Position numbers and translations under genes: made by a program
Notes under the pieces: model-generated
The model's database searches: none
Told to the model about the DNA's origin: nothing
Seen by the model: the letters and a program-made list of their open reading frames with translations, nothing else
Virus record (IMG/VR): IMGVR_UViG_3300011439_000031
Coordinates: 1-43,623 of that record
DNA length: 43,623 bases
Source: a virus
Taxonomy: Duplodnaviria > Caudoviricetes
Strand: one strand, 5' to 3'
Shown: positions 3,662 through 40,845 of the stretch, piece by piece
Layout: each line of letters opens with the position of its first letter
Position numbering within the stretch: position 1 is the stretch's first letter

Positions 3662-5604
3662 ATCACACCTTCCAAGAAGTTTCTCCATTCGGAGGCCGGA
3701 CGGATTTCCTTGCTTTCCATGATGGACTCAAAGGCTTCACTCTTCTCATCCAACTTAGCCTGCATGAACAGGTCGATACTATCGTTGTTCTTCAAGTCAT
3801 ATACGATGACAGGCTCTGTCTGACCTTGCCTCCAAATGCGGCCAATTGCCTGCTCATTCCTTGCAGGACTCCACCACTTATCAATGAGAACTCCTGTTGC
3901 AGAACCACCAACCCAACGCTCAGGGTTCTTCTGAAGGTTAAGCCCTTCGCACATAGCCAAGTTCACACACAAGACGTCAATCTCTCCGGCCTGAAACTTC
4001 TTCTCGAAATCTCCGGCGTTCTTCGTGTCACCAAAGATAACTTCACACTTCTTGCCATTAGCGTCGCAACGACGCTTCACTTCATGCATTGGCTCATTGA
4101 AGGTACAAAAGACAACTACTTGATCGTCAGCGGCGTAGATAATATCCATCGTCTCATCGATCTTCGAGCTATCCTGGATATCCAACCTAACTTCGTGCTC
4201 GGTAACTGGATCGGTGATCTTGATACCTGCTGGCCATGAATTGATCTGACGCAAACGGGTTAATTGTGCGATGATGGCCGCAGCAGTCAGGGGGATTTGT
4301 CCCTGCTTATCAAGCCAGATAAAGAACTGGAAACGCATCTGCTCATACACCTTAGCTTGTTCGCTATTCATATCAAGCATACGTTGGATGATTGTAAGCT
4401 CAGGAAGTTCGAGCCCAACTTCCTTTCTGTTCCTACGAATCATCTGTCCCTTAAGTGCGGACTTAAGAATCTTCTCAGAATCAACTACCAACTGGAACTG
4501 TCCCGCAACACTTCTGTAGGAAGTGAACTGACGCTCGAATAGACGGAAATTCGGGAACTTATCGGGATCGAAGATGTGAAGGTAGCTCCACATTTCCTCA
4601 GGCTTATTCACCATTGGAGTACCAGAAAGGAACAGGTTGAATCGTGCATTATGGCACAGGTTCTTACAGGCTTCCCAGATCTTTGTTGGGCCTGAACTAT
4701 TCGCTCCACCCTTGAGCTTATGGACTTCATCAATTACGATGTAATCCCACGCTGTCTCATTGACCTTAGGAGTTGTACGAACAAACTCGTAGTTGACCAA
4801 GAGAATATCGACGCCGATACCCTCATACATATCGAGTAAGAAATTGCGATCGGACTCACTGACTGTAGACTTCAATGGAGTCATTACTTTGCAATCTGGC
4901 CACCAAGTCTTGATTTCTGCCGGAGTAGAACCAACCAAGCTTTTCTTCGTAAGCCACAGAACCTTTGGCTTCTTACCAGAATTTTGATCCTGATAAGTCT
5001 TGCTCAGAATGTACAGGGTAACGATTGTCTCGAATGTCTTACCAAGTCCCAGGTCATTTGCATTCAGGATACCGTTGCGGCCTTCATTGAAAGCGTTGAC
5101 GGTAAAGAGAATGTCGTCATGCTGGTACATATGGGCCTGGAAGTAAGCAGGGAAGTTCTGGCAGATAAGCTCCAACTCCTTTGAGAGTTGATCGAGAGTT
5201 TCGGCCTCGAGTTTTTGTGCATGAAGTTGTGCTTCCAACCTCGCACGCTCAGCAGCGGCCAGTCTTTCTTCTTCAAGCTTCCGCTCAATCTCTCGCATGG
5301 AAAGAGTCAGGTCGTTCTTCTTCTCTTGCAGCTTCAATAGCTTCTGCTCAAACTCCAAACGAAGTTGCTCTTGCAAAGTTGCCAAGTTGTCACGTTCACT
5401 TTTCAAAGTGGCGAACTGAGTTTCAAGATCAACGTTAACTGAGTTCTGCTGAAACGCAGGGAAGATTGCCTGCTGTACTGCATGATTAGGTGTAGGCCGT
5501 TTCGACTCAATAATTGCGATAGGCTTATTCTCTTCTAGAGCATCAAACTCCCCAGCAAGGGGATCATTTGCAGGCGGGATAGACTTAGGAATCTCGAAGT
5601 TCAC
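3658..5604 (-). CDS. SNF2-family (SF2) helicase/ATPase with N-terminal coiled coil
   Basis: DLGLGKT (motif I), IDEVH (II), LSGTP (III), EGLNLQ (V), QAIGRIWRQGQ (VI). Confidence 0.92.
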   Translation of the reverse strand: MNFEIPKSIPPANDPLAGEFDALEENKPIAIIESKRPTPNHAVQQAIFPAFQQNSVNVDLETQFATLKSERDNLATLQEQLRLEFEQKLLKLQEKKNDLTLSMREIERKLEEERLAAAERARLEAQLHAQKLEAETLDQLSKELELICQNFPAYFQAHMYQHDDILFTVNAFNEGRNGILNANDLGLGKTFETIVTLYILSKTYQDQNSGKKPKVLWLTKKSLVGSTPAEIKTWWPDCKVMTPLKSTVSESDRNFLLDMYEGIGVDILLVNYEFVRTTPKVNETAWDYIVIDEVHKLKGGANSSGPTKIWEACKNLCHNARFNLFLSGTPMVNKPEEMWSYLHIFDPDKFPNFRLFERQFTSYRSVAGQFQLVVDSEKILKSALKGQMIRRNRKEVGLELPELTIIQRMLDMNSEQAKVYEQMRFQFFIWLDKQGQIPLTAAAIIAQLTRLRQINSWPAGIKITDPVTEHEVRLDIQDSSKIDETMDIIYAADDQVVVFCTFNEPMHEVKRRCDANGKKCEVIFGDTKNAGDFEKKFQAGEIDVLCVNLAMCEGLNLQKNPERWVGGSATGVLIDKWWSPARNEQAIGRIWRQGQTEPVIVYDLKNNDSIDLFMQAKLDEKSEAFESIMESKEIRPASEWRNFLEGVI

Positions 5605-6875: not shown

Positions 6876-6904
6876 AGTATAACACGGATCCGGCCGAATG
6901 TCAA
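6876..6904 (-). promoter_or_regulatory. Near-consensus promoter TTGACA-N17-TATACT
   Basis: -35 at 6899-6904 and -10 at 6876-6881, with TG extension. Confidence 0.88.
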
Positions 6905-7710: not shown

Positions 7711-7747
7711 AGATTACACCCTCCTTATGCGACGGCGGTAGGGGTCT

Positions 7748-7777
7748 ATTGTACCATAGAGGGTAGCTACTTGACTA
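7748..7777 (-). promoter_or_regulatory. Promoter TAGTCA-N18-TACAAT with extended -10
   Basis: TG-G-TACAAT with the hexamer at 7748-7753; same unusual -35 and spacing as the whiB promoter. Confidence 0.7.
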
Positions 7778-7780
7778 GCA

Positions 7781-7834
7781 CTTTCTTGATAGTTCTAAGT
7801 GGTTTTTCCTTTCTTGATAGTTCCAAGTGGTTTT
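7781..7834. repeat. 26-bp direct repeat x2 (CTTTCTTGATAGTTCYAAGTGGTTTT)
   Basis: 7781-7806 and 7809-7834 with one mismatch; the core TTTCTTGATAGT also occurs at 771-782. Confidence 0.9.
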
Positions 7835-7860
7835 AGGGCTGTTATGTTATAATGATGAAT

Positions 7861-7921
7861 GTTATACCTTACCCTTAACTTTTAGAGGCATAAGCCCAGG
7901 TCAGGGGGGGTGAGGTATAAC
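7861..7921. repeat. Inverted repeat GTTATACCTTACCC / GGGTGAGGTATAAC
   Basis: 14-bp arms with one G-T pair. Confidence 0.75.
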
Positions 7922-8179
7922 TCTGTTATGTTCAGACACTTCGTAACTGCTAACTGTAGTGTGTTTCTTTTACAAGAAAACATACACTAACAGTTGCAAA
8001 AATACCCAATGAAAGCCCAATAATTAGCCAGACCCCTGTACGAAACCAGCCGCCGAAAAACGTAAAGCTCACGCCGTAACATTTAATTCAATATAAGAGG
8101 CAATAATCAATTTAATTTAACCGAATAACAGCGACGGTCTTTCTCTGCTGAACGAACCGAGTAACTGCGACCCGCGCAG

Positions 8180-8217
8180 CGAAACTAAAGGGCCCGACTC
8201 TTTCGAGCCGAGCCCTT
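8180..8217 (-). terminator. Probable intrinsic terminator with GAAA tetraloop
   Basis: Minus strand AAGGGCTCGGCTC-GAAA-GAGTCGGGCCCTT then TAGTTT; the G-U pairs work only on the minus strand. Confidence 0.65.
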
Positions 8218-8336
8218 AAAGGGTTGGGTAGGGTAGGGGGTATTTCTGTCCCCCTACCCTCTTCGGGACCCACTACGCTAGATTCCCTAGGTATTTCTGG
8301 CCTAGTTCTAGTCGCTAATGATGACTCCAAGCTAGC

Positions 8337-8633
8337 TTAGAATTCTCCCGCTAGGGGATCATTCTCCACTACGATGGCTTCGACAACTGGCGTCGAATTC
8401 ACGTTAGGCTTGCGGATACGCTTTACCGTATCGCCCCTTGCGGGCTGCAATCCTTGCGCAATCAAATCAAATTGCGCATCGTGGAGCTTGCGAAGATCGC
8501 TCACGTAATCGCCCAGCGTATCGATATGCTTGGCAATCTGGGCAACCTCAGCGTCGCTACCATCCTTGAAGATTCCCGGGATCAATCGCCCATAGGCTTC
8601 AAATTTCGCCCGGAAAGTCTGCTTATCAGTCAT
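8337..8633 (-). CDS. Early hypothetical protein ending in NDPLAGEF
   Basis: Strong GGAGGTGA RBS; own promoter; downstream hairpins. Confidence 0.85.
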   Translation of the reverse strand: MTDKQTFRAKFEAYGRLIPGIFKDGSDAEVAQIAKHIDTLGDYVSDLRKLHDAQFDLIAQGLQPARGDTVKRIRKPNVNSTPVVEAIVVENDPLAGEF

Positions 8634-8786
8634 TAGTTCACCTCCCTTCGTCTGATCTAGTAGGAACGAAACTCTCCCTAACCTTGTTTCCCGGCCGTAG
8701 GTGGCGCCGTATCGGGAACCGCTTATTAGGCGGTATAGATCGTGCGGGCCTTGCGGACTCGGATGCCATGCGGTTTCGCTGAGAGA

Positions 8787-8816
8787 ATTATGCCCAGATC
8801 GCCGAAAGATTGTCCA
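8787..8816 (-). promoter_or_regulatory. Promoter TGGACA-N18-CATAAT
   Basis: -35 at 8811-8816 and -10 at 8787-8792; implies a ~145-nt leader before ATG 8633. Confidence 0.7.
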
Positions 8817-8826
8817 GATATTTCTT

Positions 8827-8842
8827 TGTGACGTCCGTCACA
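8827..8842. promoter_or_regulatory. CRP/GlxR-type site, perfect TGTGA-N6-TCACA
   Basis: TGTGACGTCCGTCACA. Confidence 0.8.
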
Positions 8843-8843
8843 C

Positions 8844-8877
8844 CAAACAAACGTTCGTCGATCGAACAAACGTTCGT
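8844..8877. promoter_or_regulatory. Two Gram-positive-type LexA (SOS) boxes
   Basis: CAAAC-AAAC-GTTCG (8844-8857) and TCGAAC-AAAC-GTTCGT (8862-8877) versus TCGAAC-N4-GTTCGA. Confidence 0.8.
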
Positions 8878-8893
8878 TGTGACAAATGTCACT
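8878..8893. promoter_or_regulatory. Second CRP/GlxR-type site
   Basis: TGTGA-CAAATG-TCACT, one mismatch. Confidence 0.7.
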
Positions 8894-8928
8894 TGACAAG
8901 CCTACCGAATAACTGCGACGCTGTCTTT

Positions 8929-8943
8929 TGAGAATGATTCTCA
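8929..8943. promoter_or_regulatory. Fur-family 7-1-7 box
   Basis: TGAGAAT-G-ATTCTCA perfect palindrome. Confidence 0.75.
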
Positions 8944-8948
8944 TTACC

Positions 8949-8989
8949 TGATAACGATTTCATGAGAACGATTTCTGAAATCGATTTCA
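8949..8989. promoter_or_regulatory. Three tandem LacI/GalR-family (cre-like) operators
   Basis: TGATAACGATTTCA, TGAGAACGATTTCT, TGAAATCGATTTCA: 14-mers with central CG; the last is a perfect palindrome. Confidence 0.7.
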
Positions 8990-9039
8990 AGCGAACCCAA
9001 TAACTGCGACCCGCCTGCGGCGTAATCTCTCCCGCGAGT

Positions 9040-9063
9040 AACTCAGCCCCGAAGGGCTGAGTT
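9040..9063 (-). other. Stable hairpin with C(UUCG)G loop on the minus strand
   Basis: AACTCAGCCC-TTCG-GGGCTGAGTT. Confidence 0.75.
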
Positions 9064-9186
9064 CTCCCGGCATCGGCACCAGCGCCAATCTTCGGCGCAT
9101 TCGTCGCACAAGCTGAACACGAATTGCGTGGAAGGTTTGGGCGGGGATTTCTCCCCGCCCTTCCCTTTCTCAGTCGATGTACTCAT
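9043..9186 (-). CDS. Possible 47 aa Cys-rich micro-protein (absent from the track)
   Basis: MSTSTEK...CDECAEDWRWCRC...; no clear RBS; overlaps hairpins. Confidence 0.35.
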   Translation of the reverse strand: MSTSTEKGKGGEKSPPKPSTQFVFSLCDECAEDWRWCRCRENSALRG

Positions 9187-9397
9187 CGACGTTCGAGCTG
9201 AGTGAAGCTCGGCACCAGCGCAAGTCGCGCTCGATCAGCTGAACAACGTTGCGCAGGGCATCGGCGTGCTTCTGCGCACGATTTGCCTTCTTGACGAACG
9301 CATCCCGCTCGACCTTCGCCGTGGCGAGATTCTCCGCCAGCTGATCGACAACCTCTTGCGTGATTGCGTCATCGTGGTAACGGTGGTTCAGGTACAT
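9170..9397 (-). CDS. Early hypothetical coiled-coil protein, GC-rich
   Basis: GAGAGGG RBS; first leftward gene; followed by a GAAA hairpin at 9139-9160. Confidence 0.8.
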   Translation of the reverse strand: MYLNHRYHDDAITQEVVDQLAENLATAKVERDAFVKKANRAQKHADALRNVVQLIERDLRWCRASLSSNVDEYID

Positions 9398-9472
9398 GGT
9401 TTGGTTTCCCTCTCAGGTTTGGTGTCGGCCTTTCCGACAAGGATTACTCTACTCCTTCAATGCGTCAATTCC

Positions 9473-9488
9473 GTTACGCCAATGTTAC
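9473..9488. promoter_or_regulatory. GlnR/MtrA-like (OmpR-family) direct repeat
   Basis: GTTAC-N6-GTTAC (GTAAC-N6-GTAAC on the minus strand). Confidence 0.5.
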
Positions 9489-9498
9489 GAGATGATGT

Positions 9499-9532
9499 CG
9501 GTTTATTATGCACCCCTCTGCATAAACATGAA
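9499..9532. promoter_or_regulatory. Tandem ARG-box-like (ArgR) site
   Basis: ...TTATTATGCA-CCCCTC-TGCATAAACATGAA versus TGCAT-N4-ATGCA at a 20-bp period; the first box matches only in its right half. Confidence 0.55.
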
Positions 9533-9534
9533 AT

Positions 9535-9554
9535 GAGAATGAGAACCATTCTCA
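9535..9554. promoter_or_regulatory. Fur-family box
   Basis: GAGAATGAGAACCATTCTC matches GATAATGATAATCATTATC at 15/19 positions. Confidence 0.7.
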
Positions 9555-9563
9555 ATTTCTAGG

Positions 9564-9601
9564 CTGACTGACTAATCAGTCAGTGACTGACGCGTCAGTC
9601 A
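9564..9601. promoter_or_regulatory. Two abutting palindromes resembling TetR-family operators
   Basis: CTGACTGA-CTAA-TCAGTCAG (9564-9583) and the perfect 18-mer TGACTGACGCGTCAGTCA (9584-9601). Confidence 0.55.
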
Positions 9602-9705
9602 GGATTGGTTGATCCCGCAACGAAAAAAGGCGACTAGACTTCGTTTTGTCTGGTAATATCACAGAAGTTTTTTCAGAAAAATTTCACTTTTTTTAAATTG
9701 AAAAC

Positions 9706-10422
9706 TTGCAAAACCTTCAAGAAACTGCTTTACTGGCACAAGTGGCTACCTCTTTCTCTGTACCCCCAATTCGAGTATCTGCAACACCCATAGAAGAACT
9801 CCCCAACCCGGATCGTCTTCTCTCAGACGAACGCTGGATGCAATTTATCACAGACCTAGAGTACACTTACTGGGATAGAGGGGAATACCTCTCCTCCCAA
9901 GATATGGCTGAACTCTACTCTCTAAAACTCGATGAAGCTGAAGCCCTTCTTTTAAAGGCTAACCCAGTCCTAGAAAAGCGCGGCTTACCTCCAACTACTC
10001 GTAAGACCTTGTTCAAGGATCAGTTCGATCCTATGTTCGTTCTAGCTGTGAACAAGCTCTCAGATCCAATGGATAAGAGAAGTAACGCTGTTAAACTAAA
10101 GGACCTAGGACTAAGCACTAAATCTTTCCAAGCTTACCTAAAACTGGAGAAGAACCGGAGTTACTACGAGCGTCGTCTTAGTGAAGCTTTTGAAACAACA
10201 GAGTACTCCGCTAAGACTTCACTCATGCGTAATATCGAGTCGGGAGATCTAAACTCCATCAAGTACTTCCATGAGTACACGGGCCGCTTCAACAGTACCG
10301 AGTCGACCGCTTTCAACTTCATCCTAGTTCTCCAAAAGGTGATGGAAATCTTGGCGCGGCATGTAGATCAGAAGGTTCTTGATTTGGTCGCCTCAGAGTT
10401 TGAGAAGGAAATCTCCGAGTGA
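9706..10422 (+). CDS. Putative terminase small subunit (start uncertain)
   Basis: First rightward gene; HTH-like segments and a C-terminal ...ESGDLNSIKYFHEYTGRF motif of the kind seen in TerS-like proteins. Confidence 0.55.
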   Translation: MQNLQETALLAQVATSFSVPPIRVSATPIEELPNPDRLLSDERWMQFITDLEYTYWDRGEYLSSQDMAELYSLKLDEAEALLLKANPVLEKRGLPPTTRKTLFKDQFDPMFVLAVNKLSDPMDKRSNAVKLKDLGLSTKSFQAYLKLEKNRSYYERRLSEAFETTEYSAKTSLMRNIESGDLNSIKYFHEYTGRFNSTESTAFNFILVLQKVMEILARHVDQKVLDLVASEFEKEISE

Positions 10423-21140: not shown

Positions 21141-21617
21141 GTGGCTTCATCTGTATTCAATATTGCTAAAGGACGTGCTGTTGAACTTCATGCTATGGCA
21201 ATTGGCGGTGGTCCTACCTCTGCCTGTCTAGTTGTGGCTGCAATTTCAGCTACAGGTTTAGAGACTGATGCTGTTCTTCTTGATAAGGTCACTTTGGCTG
21301 ATGTAGTTGCAGGGACTACAAACCTTGCTGCCAATACCACAGTTCAAGTCGTTGACACTCCTATTCCTAGTTCACCGGACGATACAAATAACTGGATTAG
21401 ACTTGATCTAACTGACGTCAACTTTGGTGCGGTTATTGCTGGTGACCCTTGGGCTAAGGTTGTCATCGGTTTTAATCCTACACTTGCAACAGCTGCAACT
21501 AACCATGCAAGTACTATCCCGATTTCCCTTCACGATATTGCTATTACTCCTGACGGTTCTACTATTATTATCCAGATCAACGCACTTGGCTATTTTCAGG
21601 CGAATGAATGCCCGTAG
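21141..21617 (+). CDS. Virion structural protein, paralog B (start GTG 21141)
   Basis: AAGGAG RBS; VFNIAKGRAVELH...GLETDAVLLDK...HDIAITPDGSTIIIQI...GYFQA. Confidence 0.8.
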   Translation: MASSVFNIAKGRAVELHAMAIGGGPTSACLVVAAISATGLETDAVLLDKVTLADVVAGTTNLAANTTVQVVDTPIPSSPDDTNNWIRLDLTDVNFGAVIAGDPWAKVVIGFNPTLATAATNHASTIPISLHDIAITPDGSTIIIQINALGYFQANECP

Positions 21618-24600
21618 TTCCTATTCAGCAAGCCCTTGAACAAGATCGGGCTCGGGATACTCCCAGCTTCCACCCTCTTATTCAACAGGCTCTTGAAAAG
21701 GATCTAGCTAATAATGTAACTGTACAGTTTACAAAGATTCCTAAGTTTGTTTTAATTCAGCAGGCCTTAGAACGTAACTCGGCTCAGAACTCATCGGGTT
21801 CTAAGTTTGTTCTAATTCAGCAGGCCTTGGAGCGTAACTTAACTCAAGACCCACAGTTTATTAAGTCTGTAACGTTAAGTCAAGCTAGTGAAGCTAACGT
21901 AGCTCAGAACGTAACTAGGTTCGTCTTTCCTCCTAAGATTGTTTTAGTTGAACAGGCGCTTGAAAAGGACTTAGCTCAGAGTGTAACTTTCCAGTTTACT
22001 CTGATTCCAAAGTTTGTTTTAATTCAGCAGGCGTTAGAAAAGGACGCTTCTCAAGATGTAATTAGGTATATTTTTCCTCCTACAATTGTTCCTGTTCAGC
22101 AAGCTCTAGAAAAGAACGTTGCTCAGACTGTAACTTTCCAGCTTACACTGACACCGAAGTTTGTTCTTATTCAACAGGCTCTCGAAAAAGGTGTAGCTCA
22201 AGATGTTACACTTGGTAGGACGTACCTACTTCAACAAGCTCTTGAAAAAGATCAATCTCAGGACTTCTCATTTAGTAAGTCTACTAGTGTTCAACAAGCG
22301 GTTGAAAGTAACCAAACTTATGATGTAGCTAGGTTTATCCAGCCTCCAAAACTCGTAGCTATAACACAGGCTCTTGAAAAAGATGCTTCTCAAAATGTAA
22401 CTTTCTCATTTACTCTATCTCCAAAATTCTTCCTTCTTGAACAAGCTCTTGAGCGTAACCAATCTCAAGACGTTGCGCGCTACGTTATACCTCCTAAGAA
22501 TGTTTTAGTTGAACAAGCAGTTGAACGAAACCAAGCTTATACTGTAACTGCACAATTTACTTTAACACCTAAGTTAATTTTAGTTGCACAAGCAGTTGAG
22601 AGGAACTTAGCACAAAATGTAGAACTTGCTAAGTCTACTCCAATCGAACAAGCAGAAGAATCTAACGTAGCTCAGAATGTTACGTTTGCTAGATCTACAC
22701 CGATTCAACAGGCTTTTGAGGGTAACCAGACTTATGACGTAATTAGATTTATTCTTCCTCCTAAGCTTATCTTGGTTCAACAAGCTCTTGAAAAGAACGC
22801 TTCCCAAGATGTAACTGCACAGTTTATTTTATCGCCAAAGTTTGTTTTAATTCAGCAGGCTCTTGAAGCTAACTTATCTCAGGATGTAATTAGGTATATA
22901 CAGCCTACTAAGGTTGTTCCAGTTGAGCAAGCAATAGAGCGTAACCTAGCTCAAAATGTAACTGCTCAACTTACTCTAACACCTAAGCTAGTTTTAATTG
23001 ATCAATCACTTGAAAAGAACTTAGCTCAAAACGTAGCCTTTACTAGAGCTAAGTCAATTGAACAGGCTATTGAAGCTAACGTAGCCCAAGATGTAATTCG
23101 GTACGTACAGCCTTCAACGAATGTTTTAATACAGCAAGCATTTGAAAATAACGTAGCTCGTGATGTAAATCTTCTACCTTCTAAGAACGTTCTACTTCAA
23201 CAAGCCATAGAACGAAATCTTGCTCAAAACGTAACTGCTTTAATAAAGCCAGCTCTAGTAATAGAGCAAGCTTTTGAGGGCAACATAGCTCGCGATTTAA
23301 CTGAGTTTACACCGCCACTAACTCCTATTGAACAAGCGTTTGAAAGTAACGTAGCTTATAATTTAGTTCAGGTACCTTCTACACTTGTTCCTATCCAACA
23401 GGCTTTTGAAAAGAACGCTGCTCTTGATGTAGCTCAACCTGTTCCTTTCCCAATCGAACAGGCGTTTGAAGGTGACGTAGCTCGAAACGTAGTTGGTCTT
23501 GTACAGGCTGCTAAACTTGTTCTTATTCAGCAAGCTTTTGAAGCTAACCTAGCTCGGGACTTCGGTCAACCTAGTTACTTTACAATCCAGCAAGCGTTTG
23601 AACGTAACCTAGCGTTTGATTTTCCAATCAAGGTTGTCTCGATTGAGACAGCGTTTGAAGGTGATCTAGCTAGAGATGTAAGTCTACCTAGACTAACTCT
23701 TATAGAGCAGGCATTTGAAAAGAACGTAGCTCAGAATCTGGTCTTTTCCTTCAGTGGCAAGGTTGCTTTAATTCAGCAGGCTTTTGAAGGTGACGTAGCT
23801 CAGAATCTTGGCAAGTTTGTACAGCAAACTCTTCTTGAAACTGCACATGAAGGCAACTTCGCTTTTGAAGTAACACAATATATAATAGAGACGCTTCACG
23901 GTTCCTGGTTCTCTGATCTTTATCACGCCATAGGTTGGCAAAGTAAGATCTCTTCAATTGGTTCAGTAAGTGATCTTTATCACGCAATAACACTGAAGGG
24001 TAGCGTTAAACTTCCAGCTTGGTTGAGTGACGTTTACCCTGCTGTTGGAGTTAAATCAAAAGTCTACTCTCAAGAAATTGTTAGAGTTACAGCCTTCCTA
24101 GTGAGTGCTCTTGAACAAGCGTTTGAAAACGATGTAGCTCAGAACCTAGCAAACCCAGTTCCTCAAATTATCTCACTAACTCAAGCTCTTGAAAGAGGCT
24201 TGTCTAGAGATGTAGCTCATCTGCTTCCAGATGTTGTTTTAATTGAACAAGCAGAAGAACAGAACGTAGCTTTAAGCATAACGTTTATGTTCCCAAGGGT
24301 TGTTGTAATTCAACAGGCTTTGGAAAAAGATGTAGCTCAGAACGTAATAAGGTACGCACCAGTCACCGTTCTAATTCAACAGGCATTTGAAAAAGATGTA
24401 GCTCAAAATGTAGTTCACCTGTTCCACAACGTACTGCTAGAACAGGCAGTTGAACGAAACCAAGCCCTTAATATAGGTCAGGGTAGTTATAAGGTTATTG
24501 AAATAGCTAAAGAAAATAACCTAGCTCTTGATCTAATTAAGAAACCTCTCTTTACCATAAGCCAGGCTCTTGAAAGAAACCTAGCTCAAAACTTAGTACA

Positions 24601-24811
24601 ACGGCCAGTCATACCGCAGCAGCTTCTTATAGAAACTGCACATGAAGGTAATTTTACTTTCACCATAAGTAAGTCTGAAATAACTAAGTCTAAGTACGGT
24701 TGGATTTCTGATGTTTATCACGCTATTGGATGGAGCTCTCGTATATCTTCGGATGAGAGTTCTACACTGGATATTTATTCGGGAGTACGGACTAAGAGTA
24801 AGGTGCATTAA
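21608..24811 (+). CDS. 1067 aa tandem-repeat protein (43 x IQQALEKNxAQNV-like), putative fibre/filament component
   Basis: Repeats counted by eye; lies in the structural operon. Confidence 0.8.
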   Translation: MPVVPIQQALEQDRARDTPSFHPLIQQALEKDLANNVTVQFTKIPKFVLIQQALERNSAQNSSGSKFVLIQQALERNLTQDPQFIKSVTLSQASEANVAQNVTRFVFPPKIVLVEQALEKDLAQSVTFQFTLIPKFVLIQQALEKDASQDVIRYIFPPTIVPVQQALEKNVAQTVTFQLTLTPKFVLIQQALEKGVAQDVTLGRTYLLQQALEKDQSQDFSFSKSTSVQQAVESNQTYDVARFIQPPKLVAITQALEKDASQNVTFSFTLSPKFFLLEQALERNQSQDVARYVIPPKNVLVEQAVERNQAYTVTAQFTLTPKLILVAQAVERNLAQNVELAKSTPIEQAEESNVAQNVTFARSTPIQQAFEGNQTYDVIRFILPPKLILVQQALEKNASQDVTAQFILSPKFVLIQQALEANLSQDVIRYIQPTKVVPVEQAIERNLAQNVTAQLTLTPKLVLIDQSLEKNLAQNVAFTRAKSIEQAIEANVAQDVIRYVQPSTNVLIQQAFENNVARDVNLLPSKNVLLQQAIERNLAQNVTALIKPALVIEQAFEGNIARDLTEFTPPLTPIEQAFESNVAYNLVQVPSTLVPIQQAFEKNAALDVAQPVPFPIEQAFEGDVARNVVGLVQAAKLVLIQQAFEANLARDFGQPSYFTIQQAFERNLAFDFPIKVVSIETAFEGDLARDVSLPRLTLIEQAFEKNVAQNLVFSFSGKVALIQQAFEGDVAQNLGKFVQQTLLETAHEGNFAFEVTQYIIETLHGSWFSDLYHAIGWQSKISSIGSVSDLYHAITLKGSVKLPAWLSDVYPAVGVKSKVYSQEIVRVTAFLVSALEQAFENDVAQNLANPVPQIISLTQALERGLSRDVAHLLPDVVLIEQAEEQNVALSITFMFPRVVVIQQALEKDVAQNVIRYAPVTVLIQQAFEKDVAQNVVHLFHNVLLEQAVERNQALNIGQGSYKVIEIAKENNLALDLIKKPLFTISQALERNLAQNLVQRPVIPQQLLIETAHEGNFTFTISKSEITKSKYGWISDVYHAIGWSSRISSDESSTLDIYSGVRTKSKVH

Positions 24812-35180: not shown

Positions 35181-35342
35181 TAGTCTGTACGCCCCTGTGT
35201 TGTAGCCAGATATAAACACTCACTAGCGGGCTGTACGTCGCTCTACGGTCATTCTAGGCCCCTCTGGCGACCCCTCTGAGCAGGTCTTATGCGGTATGTC
35301 CTCGACCATGTGTGCTAGTGACATCACTATACAAGTTGCCTA

Positions 35343-35372
35343 TAGTCAACTGCCTATCCTATGTGGTATAAT
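35343..35372 (+). promoter_or_regulatory. whiB promoter TAGTCA-N18-TATAAT, predicted leaderless transcript
   Basis: TGTGG-TATAAT with the hexamer at 35367-35372; ATG 35379 falls at the expected +1. Confidence 0.75.
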
Positions 35373-40763: not shown

Positions 40764-40845
40764 AGTGAAGGCGGCAGGAATCGAACCTGCATAGAAACTC
40801 CTGTTGGCGGGGAGTATCTCCTATATTACACCAGTAATCGCCCTC
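40763..40845 (-). ncRNA. tRNA-like / tmRNA-TLD-like RNA with G3-U70 and no canonical anticodon arm
   Basis: GAGGGCG/CGCCTTC acceptor stem, T arm GCAGG-TTCGATT-CCTGC, 3' ACTA. Confidence 0.7.

What the first reader, a model, noticed from the sequence alone, without database searches (positions are those of the whole stretch)
8827..8989. Packed array of operators for several unrelated host transcription factors (array 1)
Seen: in 163 bp lie TGTGA-N6-TCACA (8827-8842), two (G)AAC-N4-GTTC boxes (8844-8857, 8862-8877), TGTGA-N6-TCACT (8878-8893), TGAGAAT-G-ATTCTCA (8929-8943) and three TGA-CG-centred 14-mers (8949-8989), several separated by only 0-5 bp. Known: these match the consensus for CRP/GlxR, Gram-positive LexA, Fur-family and LacI/CcpA-family operators; the phage encodes none of these proteins in this window. 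Inference: relative to the nearest promoter (+1 ~8780) the CRP sites sit at about -54 and -105 and the LexA boxes at about -64 to -97, which are not canonical activating or repressing positions. This looks like a deliberate landing pad for host regulators. Candidate roles: a DNA sponge that derepresses SOS, metal and carbon regulons as genomes replicate; a protein-binding ratchet or shield on the first-ejected DNA; or a multi-input sensor of host state.
Basis: partly seen in the sequence, partly recalled or inferred. Interest (0 to 1): 0.92.

Follow-up and report, generated by a model that had tools for sequence, protein, structure and literature searches.

The report
Host-regulator collar at phage genome ends
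An actinobacterial phage, its relatives and several unrelated phages pack near-perfect copies of bacterial regulator binding sites (SOS, zinc, cAMP, sugar and TetR types) into gene-free DNA beside a predicted genome end, where bound host proteins would most likely form a protective collar rather than a genetic switch.

Summary
The sites are real: 8 consensus hits in 163 bp, against at most 2 in 150 simulated genomes. Exact copies occur in bacteria before Zur-type zinc genes and recA/dnaE-type genes. An 18-mer from a second array (9473-9601) sits before tetR genes. CRP is enriched; LacI is weak. Relatives from two studies keep the boxes while replacing the neighbouring gene. Nine of 39 family loci carry such clusters with different regulator sets, against 0 of 39 control stretches. 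The window is a Jasminevirus-like actinobacterial podophage; both arrays lie in a predicted terminal repeat (about 7889-9634), upstream of the -35 of the outermost early promoters. Unrelated T7-terminase and phi29-size phages have LexA+Fur-type arrays beside their packaging genes or ends. Best reading (0.3): an occupancy collar that shields end-proximal DNA and the first promoters from host end-processing. A repressor sponge (0.25) is close behind. Binding, host and function are untested. The scan noted similar arrays before on other DNA (e1-5922822, e1-5838732). Ten literature searches found only single-regulator precedents.

The parts
8827..8842 (.). CRP-type box 1 (perfect, extended TGTGAC-N4-GTCACA), centre -54.5 from P1
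   Evidence: extended form in 7 of 60 actinobacterial genomes (9 sites) against 0 control sites, one unpublished genome left out; unchanged in relatives
8844..8876 (.). Two LexA (SOS)-type boxes in direct repeat, centres -70.5 and -89.5
   Evidence: exact 14-mer of box 2 in 17 of 299 genomes against 5 control hits (two unpublished left out); neighbours include recA (2) and a DnaE-type polymerase (1) among 17 loci; change 8845 A>G in run X2 makes box 1 equal to box 2
8878..8893 (.). CRP-type box 2; CRP-LexA-LexA-CRP centres are spaced 16-19-16 bp
   Evidence: the only change in relatives (8887) falls in the spacer
8910..8919 (+). Phage-type polar motif TAACTGCGAC (also 8162, 9001; variant 8126); likely a terminase or end signal
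   Evidence: not enriched in actinobacterial genomes (19 against 27 control hits); related GCGA motif conserved before terS in relatives
8927..8945 (.). Zur-type (Fur family) box
   Evidence: exact 19-mer in about 130 GTDB stretches against about 4 expected (my arithmetic); 5 of 8 actinobacterial loci scanned lie before ZnuA/ABC-3, L33, S14 or CobW genes; invariant in relatives
8949..8989 (.). Three LacI-type boxes, 14 and 13 bp apart (weak assignment)
   Evidence: pattern in 6 of 301 genomes against 4 control hits; 1 hit before a lacI gene and 1 before an altronate dehydratase; in study P3 box 2 moves to consensus while box 3 loses the shared base
8787..8816 (-). Predicted early promoter P1 (-35 TGGACA, 18 nt, -10 CATAAT)
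8337..8633 (-). 98-aa early gene of a family that fills the first-gene slot in relatives; function unknown
   Evidence: helical model of low confidence (pLDDT 59); no Pfam hit
9040..9160 (.). Two GC-rich hairpins (9040-9063, 9139-9160), likely terminators that keep transcription out of array 1
   Evidence: function inferred
9170..9397 (-). Variable 75-aa ORF, replaced or not covered in relatives
   Evidence: X2 joint 9014-9400 with 380 other letters
9400..9452 (-). Conserved leader and likely -10 (TAGAGT, 9451-9446) of outermost early promoter P2
   Evidence: conserved island in X2-X5; -10 read by eye, -35 poor; script preferred another -10
9473..9601 (.). Array 2: GTTAC-N6-GTTAC (9473-9488) and a 20-bp palindrome (9506-9525), both unassigned and replaced in relatives; Zur/Fur-type box (9534-9554); TetR-type palindromes (9564-9601)
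   Evidence: the 18-mer 9584-9601 occurs in 62 GTDB stretches (about 9 expected) and 29 of 32 size-selected neighbouring ORFs are TetR
9609..9634 (+). Family end motif (TTGATCCC..GCGAC); predicted right edge of the terminal repeat
   Evidence: both elements in 8 of 34 relatives before terS; contigs of X4 and X5 stop at 9634, which strain bubbles could also cause
7889..7904 (+). Predicted left edge of the terminal repeat (GGTCAG 11 nt inside, as at Jasmine's deposited left end)
   Evidence: X2 contig starts at 7887 and X4 likeness at 7890
9742..10422 (+). Terminase small subunit (likely start 9742)
   Evidence: phrog_24579; homologs

Best explanation
The array is a conserved cluster of host-regulator operator sequences in gene-free DNA near the predicted genome end, and it most likely works by occupancy: abundant host regulators would coat the stretch between the DNA end and the first early promoters and would slow host end-processing nucleases until transcription and end-joining begin. 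Shown: the boxes, their enrichment, their match to bacterial regulons, their conservation and reshuffling, and their place upstream of the -35. Inferred: that host proteins bind them; that 7889-9634 is a terminal repeat whose right edge is the physical end and, in this family, enters first; that array 1 is a duplicated inner copy of the unit 'gene-promoter-array-GCGAC'; and that the benefit is shielding.
For: Regulator identity is interchangeable. Window: CRP, LexA, Zur, LacI, TetR. L429: LexA, Zur-like, TetR. L427: four LexA. L397: three IdeR-like. L399/L402: Zur and IdeR-like. L390: DnaA and LexA. Short contigs of other phages join the LexA pair to the TetR boxes in inverted order, or two Zur boxes. 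At 7 confidently called promoters all boxes but one lie at -54 to -290 with no fixed phase; the exception is a weak LexA-like match formed by a -10 itself. A box often sits within about 10-20 bp of the end motif (window, L003, L019, L378, L428). The near-consensus internal early promoter at 6904 and the other gaps have no array. Sites are near-symmetric consensus and variants keep or improve them. Both window arrays, and both in L392, end in a GCGAC-type motif. In a LexA+Fur scan, 20 of the 24 non-coding-artefact loci are arrays (plus L506, Zur-rich); those identified lie beside terminase or packaging genes, and in G347 178-292 bp from a true end. No array held an NrdR-like box in 30 loci (recalled consensus).
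Against: No binding, nuclease or infection data; ends not mapped from reads. Array 1 itself is 650-810 bp inside the predicted end, and single boxes stand before internal promoters in L392, L390 and L009. In G347 the array is at the end opposite the early genes, and such small genomes are usually capped by terminal protein (recalled). RecBCD can evict bound proteins (recalled). Jasmine, Shocker, DS1 and Clostridium phage CS229P1 show no clear array, and 30 of 39 relatives fall under three boxes, many because the locus may not reach the region. Gene-free, non-transcribed DNA is concentrated near ends anyway, so position alone does not separate this from a sponge.
Confidence: 0.3

Rival explanations
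1. Repressor sponge: as genomes replicate, the high-affinity sites would titrate LexA, Zur/IdeR, LacI/TetR, CRP or DnaA and derepress repair, metal-uptake and catabolic genes. They would sit upstream of promoters only because that DNA is not transcribed.
For: Near-perfect, multiplied sites; avoidance of promoter cores; most targets are repressors; array at the non-early end of G347; LexA is the most enriched class upstream of terL (28 against 12 hits).
Against: No NrdR-like boxes in arrays; other gene-free zones of the window (7711-8336, 35181-35360) lack boxes; the TetR box marks a local regulator and is rare (2 of 60 genomes, one unpublished left out); only 1-2 copies exist early; SOS induction could wake prophages (recalled).
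Confidence: 0.25
2. Counter-silencing or insulation: bound regulators would keep Lsr2-type silencers off the first promoters of an AT-rich (44% GC) genome.
For: Inserted GntR operators counter-silence CgpS, and IdeR relieves Lsr2 at bfrB (PMC7002338, PMC8406272 passages). The first-gene slot holds an Lsr2-domain protein in Jasmine and L018, which lack boxes there. The most AT-rich stretch (9600-9750, 32-34% GC) borders array 2.
Against: In that paper counter-silencing worked within about -15 to +10 of the silencer peak near the start site, and DNA more than 89 bp upstream was not needed. P1 lies in 49-58% GC DNA. Lsr2 passed the cut-off in 4 of 41 phylum genomes. Host Lsr2 helps many mycobacteriophages (PMC10066036). 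Firmicutes-type small phages have arrays too.
Confidence: 0.15
3. Host-state sensor: CRP would activate P1 and LexA, Zur and LacI would tune it, delaying or speeding lysis as CtrA or Spo0A sites do.
For: Symmetric CRP-LexA-LexA-CRP block; CRP at about -63 before a weak -35 in L439 and -68.5 in L009; a GTTAC repeat overlapping the poor -35 region of P2; precedents in PMC9437464.
Against: Regulator sets and distances are not conserved; repressor boxes miss the promoter core; the GTTAC repeat is replaced in relatives; no integrase or repressor among scanned ORFs.
Confidence: 0.12
4. Entry ratchet or pause, as proposed for DnaA boxes in the T5 injection-stop region: host proteins would grip the leading DNA until host RNA polymerase pulls the genome in.
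For: Inward host-type promoters just inside the predicted leading end and no phage RNA polymerase found; DnaA boxes near the other repeat edge in L003, L390, L443; T5 model (10.1101/866236; in silico only).
Against: Ejection force is highest at the start (recalled); G347 array is at the non-early end; no DnaA box in the window stretch scanned.
Confidence: 0.1

Closest known systems
CtrA sites in the terminal repeats or gap regions of lytic Alphaproteobacteria phages (PMC9437464, passages)
   Same: Host-regulator sites concentrated in terminal repeats and intergenic gaps of lytic phages, arisen independently several times.
   Different: One master regulator controlling phage genes there; here five or more unrelated regulator classes, interchangeable between relatives and outside promoter cores.
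Spo0A boxes of Bacillus phage phi29; LexA boxes of GIL01 and CTX (as summarised in PMC9437464)
   Same: Phage DNA carries operators for a regulator that it does not encode.
   Different: Those are promoter-associated switches for one regulator; these boxes lie at -54 to -290 with no fixed phase.
Phage T5 injection-stop region with eight DnaA boxes (10.1101/866236, abstract, introduction, methods and passages; PMC13250531, passages)
   Same: Host-protein sites in gene-free DNA of a terminal repeat, with a proposed non-regulatory role.
   Different: T5 has long inverted repeats and a two-step entry; the word LexA does not occur in that preprint; the window has no DnaA box there and its arrays abut the terS-side edge.
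Disruptive counter-silencing of Lsr2/CgpS by GntR or IdeR (PMC7002338, PMC8406272, passages)
   Same: A repressor's operator acts by occupancy, whatever the regulator.
   Different: Effective positions lie near the start site; these arrays are upstream and reach the predicted DNA end.
Jasminevirus (Arthrobacter phage Jasmine, NC_041875)
   Same: Gene order, WhiB, DNA polymerase A, terL 31%, major capsid 35%, terminal repeat holding the first early gene.
   Different: Jasmine's repeat is 1330 bp with an Lsr2-domain gene and no clear array; this phage has another first gene and two arrays.

Membership tests
Zur (Fur-family) operator | Box found before zinc-uptake and zinc-free ribosomal genes in the host phylum | tested here: met
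   5 of 8 actinobacterial loci with the exact 19-mer
LexA SOS box (Gram-positive type) | Enriched in host phylum and placed before SOS genes | tested here: met
   17 of 299 genomes against 5 control hits; recA twice and one DnaE-type gene among 17 loci, most others unassigned
CRP/GlxR box | Palindrome enriched over control in actinobacterial genomes | tested here: met
   9 sites in 7 of 60 genomes against 0; neighbours not checked; the name is recalled
LacI-family operator | Enriched and placed before lacI or sugar genes | tested here: inconclusive
   6 hits against 4 controls; 2 of 6 fit
TetR-family operator (array 2) | Exact palindrome next to a tetR gene | tested here: met
   29 of 32 size-selected ORFs from 62 loci; in one Nocardioides genome it is the core of 18 repeated palindromes instead
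All operator classes | Binding by the host protein | not testable with these tools
   needs EMSA, ChIP or pull-down
Phage switches run by a host regulator (CtrA, Spo0A, LexA types) | One regulator conserved across relatives | tested here: not met
   regulator sets differ
Phage switches run by a host regulator (CtrA, Spo0A, LexA types) | Sites overlap promoter elements or hold a fixed activating position | tested here: not met
   -54 to -290, variable, at 7 called promoters
T5 injection-stop region | Ordered DnaA boxes within long inverted repeats | tested here: not met
   no DnaA box upstream of terL in the window stretch scanned; present in L003, L390, L443 without the T5 order being checked
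T5 injection-stop region | Two-step injection needing A1 and A2 | not tested
   no targeted search; none named
Lsr2 counter-silencer | Operator at the silencer nucleation site near the start site | tested here: not met
   nearest box -54.5; P1 in 49-58% GC DNA; the true Lsr2 peak is unknown
Lsr2 counter-silencer | Host encodes Lsr2 | tested here: inconclusive
   host unknown; 4 of 41 phylum genomes over the cut-off
Titration site (repressor sponge) | Several strong sites in non-transcribed DNA | tested here: met
   transcription itself is predicted
Titration site (repressor sponge) | Derepression of host regulons | not testable with these tools
   no RNA data
Jasminevirus-type long terminal repeat | Physical ends bounding the region | tested here: inconclusive
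   synteny, GGTCAG offset and contig stops at 7887 and 9634 agree; only contigs, no raw reads

The most novel reading that the evidence does not exclude
Many unrelated lytic phages have independently evolved a borrowed end cap: a modular, swappable array of operators for abundant host regulators that builds a protein collar on linear phage DNA near its end, with no phage protein and no regulatory logic, and protects it from host end-processing and end-triggered immunity.
Probability: 0.3. Interest if true: 0.9.

Novelty: new variant of a known kind. Interest (0 to 1): 0.76.

Why it matters
Host-regulator sites on phage DNA are known as one-regulator switches. Here five or more regulator classes are packed, swapped and reordered across a family and recur in unrelated phages, and their placement does not fit switching. 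If occupancy is the point, this is a protein-free way to protect or handle phage DNA ends, or a DNA sponge that rewires host regulons. Either can be tested with one 160-bp fragment. It would also give a testable frame for the long-open role of host-protein boxes in the T5 injection-stop region, and the operator types could help assign hosts and map genome ends of uncultured phages.

Tried and rejected
Structured RNA: no Rfam hit, no tRNA. One phage protein binding all sites: five different palindrome geometries; no matching domain in scanned ORFs; the 265-aa ORF has only a sub-threshold HTH lead and may bind the phage-type motif. Coding artefact: ORFs over the array (8701-8931, 8726-8944) are broken by indels in study P3. 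TAACTGCGAC as a host motif: not enriched. DNA-level search of isolates: nothing meaningful. Composite patterns with 0 hits. In one search, 56 of 80 loci were a T4-type terminase coding stretch and 3 were other chance hits (read by eye). The metagenome scan added few close relatives. Host: WhiB and endolysin searches gave only Actinomycetota; the Nocardioides lead failed (2 of 41 family genomes). Contig depth in X2 (12-13 inside, 3.5-8 outside) fits a terminal repeat but also two collapsed strains, so it is not counted. No RNA holder listed. The strict promoter scan missed most promoters; the looser one gave 7 confident calls of 20 zones. The fold of the 98-aa protein was too poor for a fold search. 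I first took the L535/L521 group for cos phages; their terminase is T7-like. Literature: searches returned 0 papers; some searches returned only the single-regulator or silencing papers cited. No supplements were read.

Full report
WHAT THE WINDOW IS. The window is a whole 43,623-bp phage record. It encodes terminase, portal, major capsid, an SU10-type adaptor, an amidase, WhiB, DNA polymerase A, a PD-(D/E)XK nuclease and an SNF2 helicase. Its closest isolates are Arthrobacter phage Jasmine, Microbacterium phage Shocker and Cellulosimicrobium phage DS1 (terL about 31%, capsid 34-38%), with the same gene order. Jasmine and Shocker have terminal repeats of 1330 and 484 bp that hold the first leftward gene. 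The host is therefore likely an actinobacterium; searches did not narrow it.

THE OBSERVATION. With recalled consensus patterns, 8 hits fall in 163 bp; 150 simulated genomes reached at most 2. The patterns were chosen after seeing the sites, so the independent tests below matter more.

ARE THEY HOST OPERATORS? Exact strings were looked up in bacterial genomes. The 19-mer at 8927-8945 occurs in about 130 GTDB stretches against about 4 by uniform chance. I scanned 40 of 167 neighbouring ORFs. In 5 of 8 actinobacterial loci they are ZnuA/ABC-3, L33, S14 or CobW genes, the pattern of a Zur regulon (regulon content recalled); elsewhere they include TonB, FeoB and Fur genes. The LexA-type 14-mer is in 17 of 299 actinobacterial genomes against 5 control hits. 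Of 17 loci, two precede recA, one a DnaE-type polymerase and two an ExoX-like domain gene; most others are unassigned. The extended CRP form gives 9 sites in 7 of 60 genomes against 0. The LacI pattern is weak: 6 against 4, with one hit before a lacI gene. A second array lies at 9473-9601. Its 18-mer palindrome occurs in 62 stretches (about 9 expected), and 29 of 32 size-selected neighbours are TetR proteins. None of these regulators was found among the phage ORFs scanned.

SELECTION. Contigs from two independent studies (X2; X3-X5) cover the region. They keep 8770-9014, 9400-9452 and 9533-9602, while the ORF at 9170-9397 is replaced or uncovered and 9453-9532 is replaced. Within array 1, changes fall outside boxes, in a CRP spacer (8887), make LexA box 1 equal to box 2 (8845), or shift strength from LacI box 3 to box 2 through their shared base (8966, 8976, 8981). 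The TetR boxes of array 2 vary more in study P3. Short contigs of other phages carry the same modules reordered or inverted.

FAMILY. Of 45 loci with terL identity of 37% or more and at least 2.5 kb upstream, 6 were dropped as redundant. Nine of 39 have three or more boxes in 300 bp, against 0 of 39 downstream controls and 1 of 780 shuffles (motif set post hoc; L399 and L402 are close kin). Thirty do not, some because the locus may not reach the region. Regulator sets differ. The layout is constant where it can be read: early gene, leftward promoter, array, then a conserved TTGATCCC..GCGA motif before terS (both elements in 8 of 34 relatives). At 7 confidently called promoters the boxes lie at -54 to -290 with no phase, apart from one weak match made by a -10 itself. 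In L427, L399, L402 and L403 more leftward genes lie between array and terS, and a GCGA-type motif follows the array in three of them (by eye). In L392 the first gene is duplicated and each copy has its own array. The window's two arrays likely arose the same way, since both end in GCGAC.

GENOME ENDS. Three hints bound a repeat of about 7889-9634. Synteny with Jasmine is one. GGTCAG lies 11 nt inside Jasmine's left end and at 7899 here. Contigs start at 7887 and stop at 9634, just after GCGAC. Strain bubbles could explain the contig stops, so the ends are predicted, not shown. If right, array 2 is 33-160 bp and array 1 is 650-810 bp inside the end whose promoters point inward, which by analogy with T7 and T5 (recalled) would enter first.

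UNRELATED PHAGES. A LexA+Fur pattern scan of IMG/VR gave 80 loci: 56 a coding artefact, 3 chance, 14 a group of small phages (contigs of 9-18 kb), 6 other arrays and one Zur-rich region near a terL relative. The identified ones sit beside T7-like or other terminases or a phi29-type packaging ATPase; L482 is unplaced. In complete record G347 the boxes are 178-292 bp from one physical end, but that is the end opposite the early genes, which counts against a leading-end-only role. The related isolate CS229P1 has no such boxes. The pattern itself selected for LexA and Fur.

MECHANISM. What is conserved is dense, strong, interchangeable operators outside promoter cores and near an end. That fits a role that needs occupancy, not logic. 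I favour a collar that slows end-processing nucleases (0.3). Boxes run up to the end motif, the strong internal promoter at 6904 and other gaps have none, and NrdR-like boxes, the obvious sponge target, are missing from arrays in 30 loci. A sponge (0.25) explains the same placement by non-transcribed space and fits G347 at least as well. Counter-silencing (0.15) has precedent (PMC7002338 and PMC8406272, passages; a lac/lambda-repressor paper seen only as a reference title), and Jasmine and L018 have an Lsr2-domain first gene without boxes. But the distances are wrong by that paper's rules, and host Lsr2 helps mycobacteriophages (PMC10066036, passages). A sensor (0.12) and a ratchet (0.1) fit less well. 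No step from binding onward is shown.

WHAT IS KNOWN. CtrA sites cluster in terminal repeats of lytic caulophages, and Spo0A and LexA sites act as switches (PMC9437464, passages). DnaA boxes in the T5 repeat have a proposed entry role (10.1101/866236, first part and passages; PMC13250531, passages). PMC8612146 and PMC7302621 (passages) note Lsr2 genes in terminal repeats but no arrays in the passages seen. Ten searches found no multi-regulator array; subscription journals and supplements were not covered. Two earlier notes of this scan describe similar arrays on other DNA; they are leads, not support.

VERDICT. A real, selected, family-wide and convergent array of host-regulator operators near phage genome ends; a new variant of host-site co-option, possibly a new end-protection principle. 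Interest 0.76.

Noticed in passing
window 8340-8363 and 5542-5565 (minus strand): The 98-aa early protein ends in the same 8 residues (NDPLAGEF) that stand near the N-terminus of the SNF2 helicase; possibly a shared docking motif.
   Followed up: no
window 8337-8633; L003, L009, L019, L378, L390, L392, L428, L439, L443: Unnamed family of first-early proteins: a long helix plus a basic RKP/GR tail; duplicated in L392 and L009; the same slot holds an Lsr2-domain protein in Jasmine and L018.
   Followed up: partly
window 7890-8190: AT-rich, A-tract-bearing non-coding stretch, highly conserved in relatives with no recognised host boxes; relatives have DnaA boxes or iteron-like repeats in the matching zone. 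Possible origin or left-end signal.
   Followed up: partly
window 7728, 8126, 8162, 8910, 9001, 9630: Polar GCGAC-type motif repeated on one strand across the predicted repeat, not host-enriched; candidate terminase box or cut signal.
   Followed up: partly
window 21608-24811: 1067-aa virion-region ORF built of dozens of 60-75-nt repeats, no PHROG hit.
   Followed up: no
window 40764-40790: Short stretch resembling a tRNA arm on the minus strand; ARAGORN finds no tRNA.
   Followed up: partly
G003 (L167, L178, L221, L223): In Nocardioides eburneus the TetR-type 18-mer is the core of 18 repeated palindromes, unlike 40 other family genomes.
   Followed up: partly
L462, L499 and 12 like loci, first 330 bp; G347: Small phi29-type phages related to Clostridium phage CS229P1 carry two LexA-type and two Fur-type boxes near the packaging-gene end; the outer 200 bp might hold a small RNA gene.
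   Followed up: partly
L482:2850-3150; L521:2860-3090; L535:2890-3050; L507:1-150: Further dense LexA/Fur/DnaA/IdeR-like arrays in unrelated phages.
   Followed up: partly
L427:1225-1255; L392:3039, 4157; L428: Recurrent unassigned palindrome TTGCG-N2-CGCAA inside arrays.
   Followed up: no
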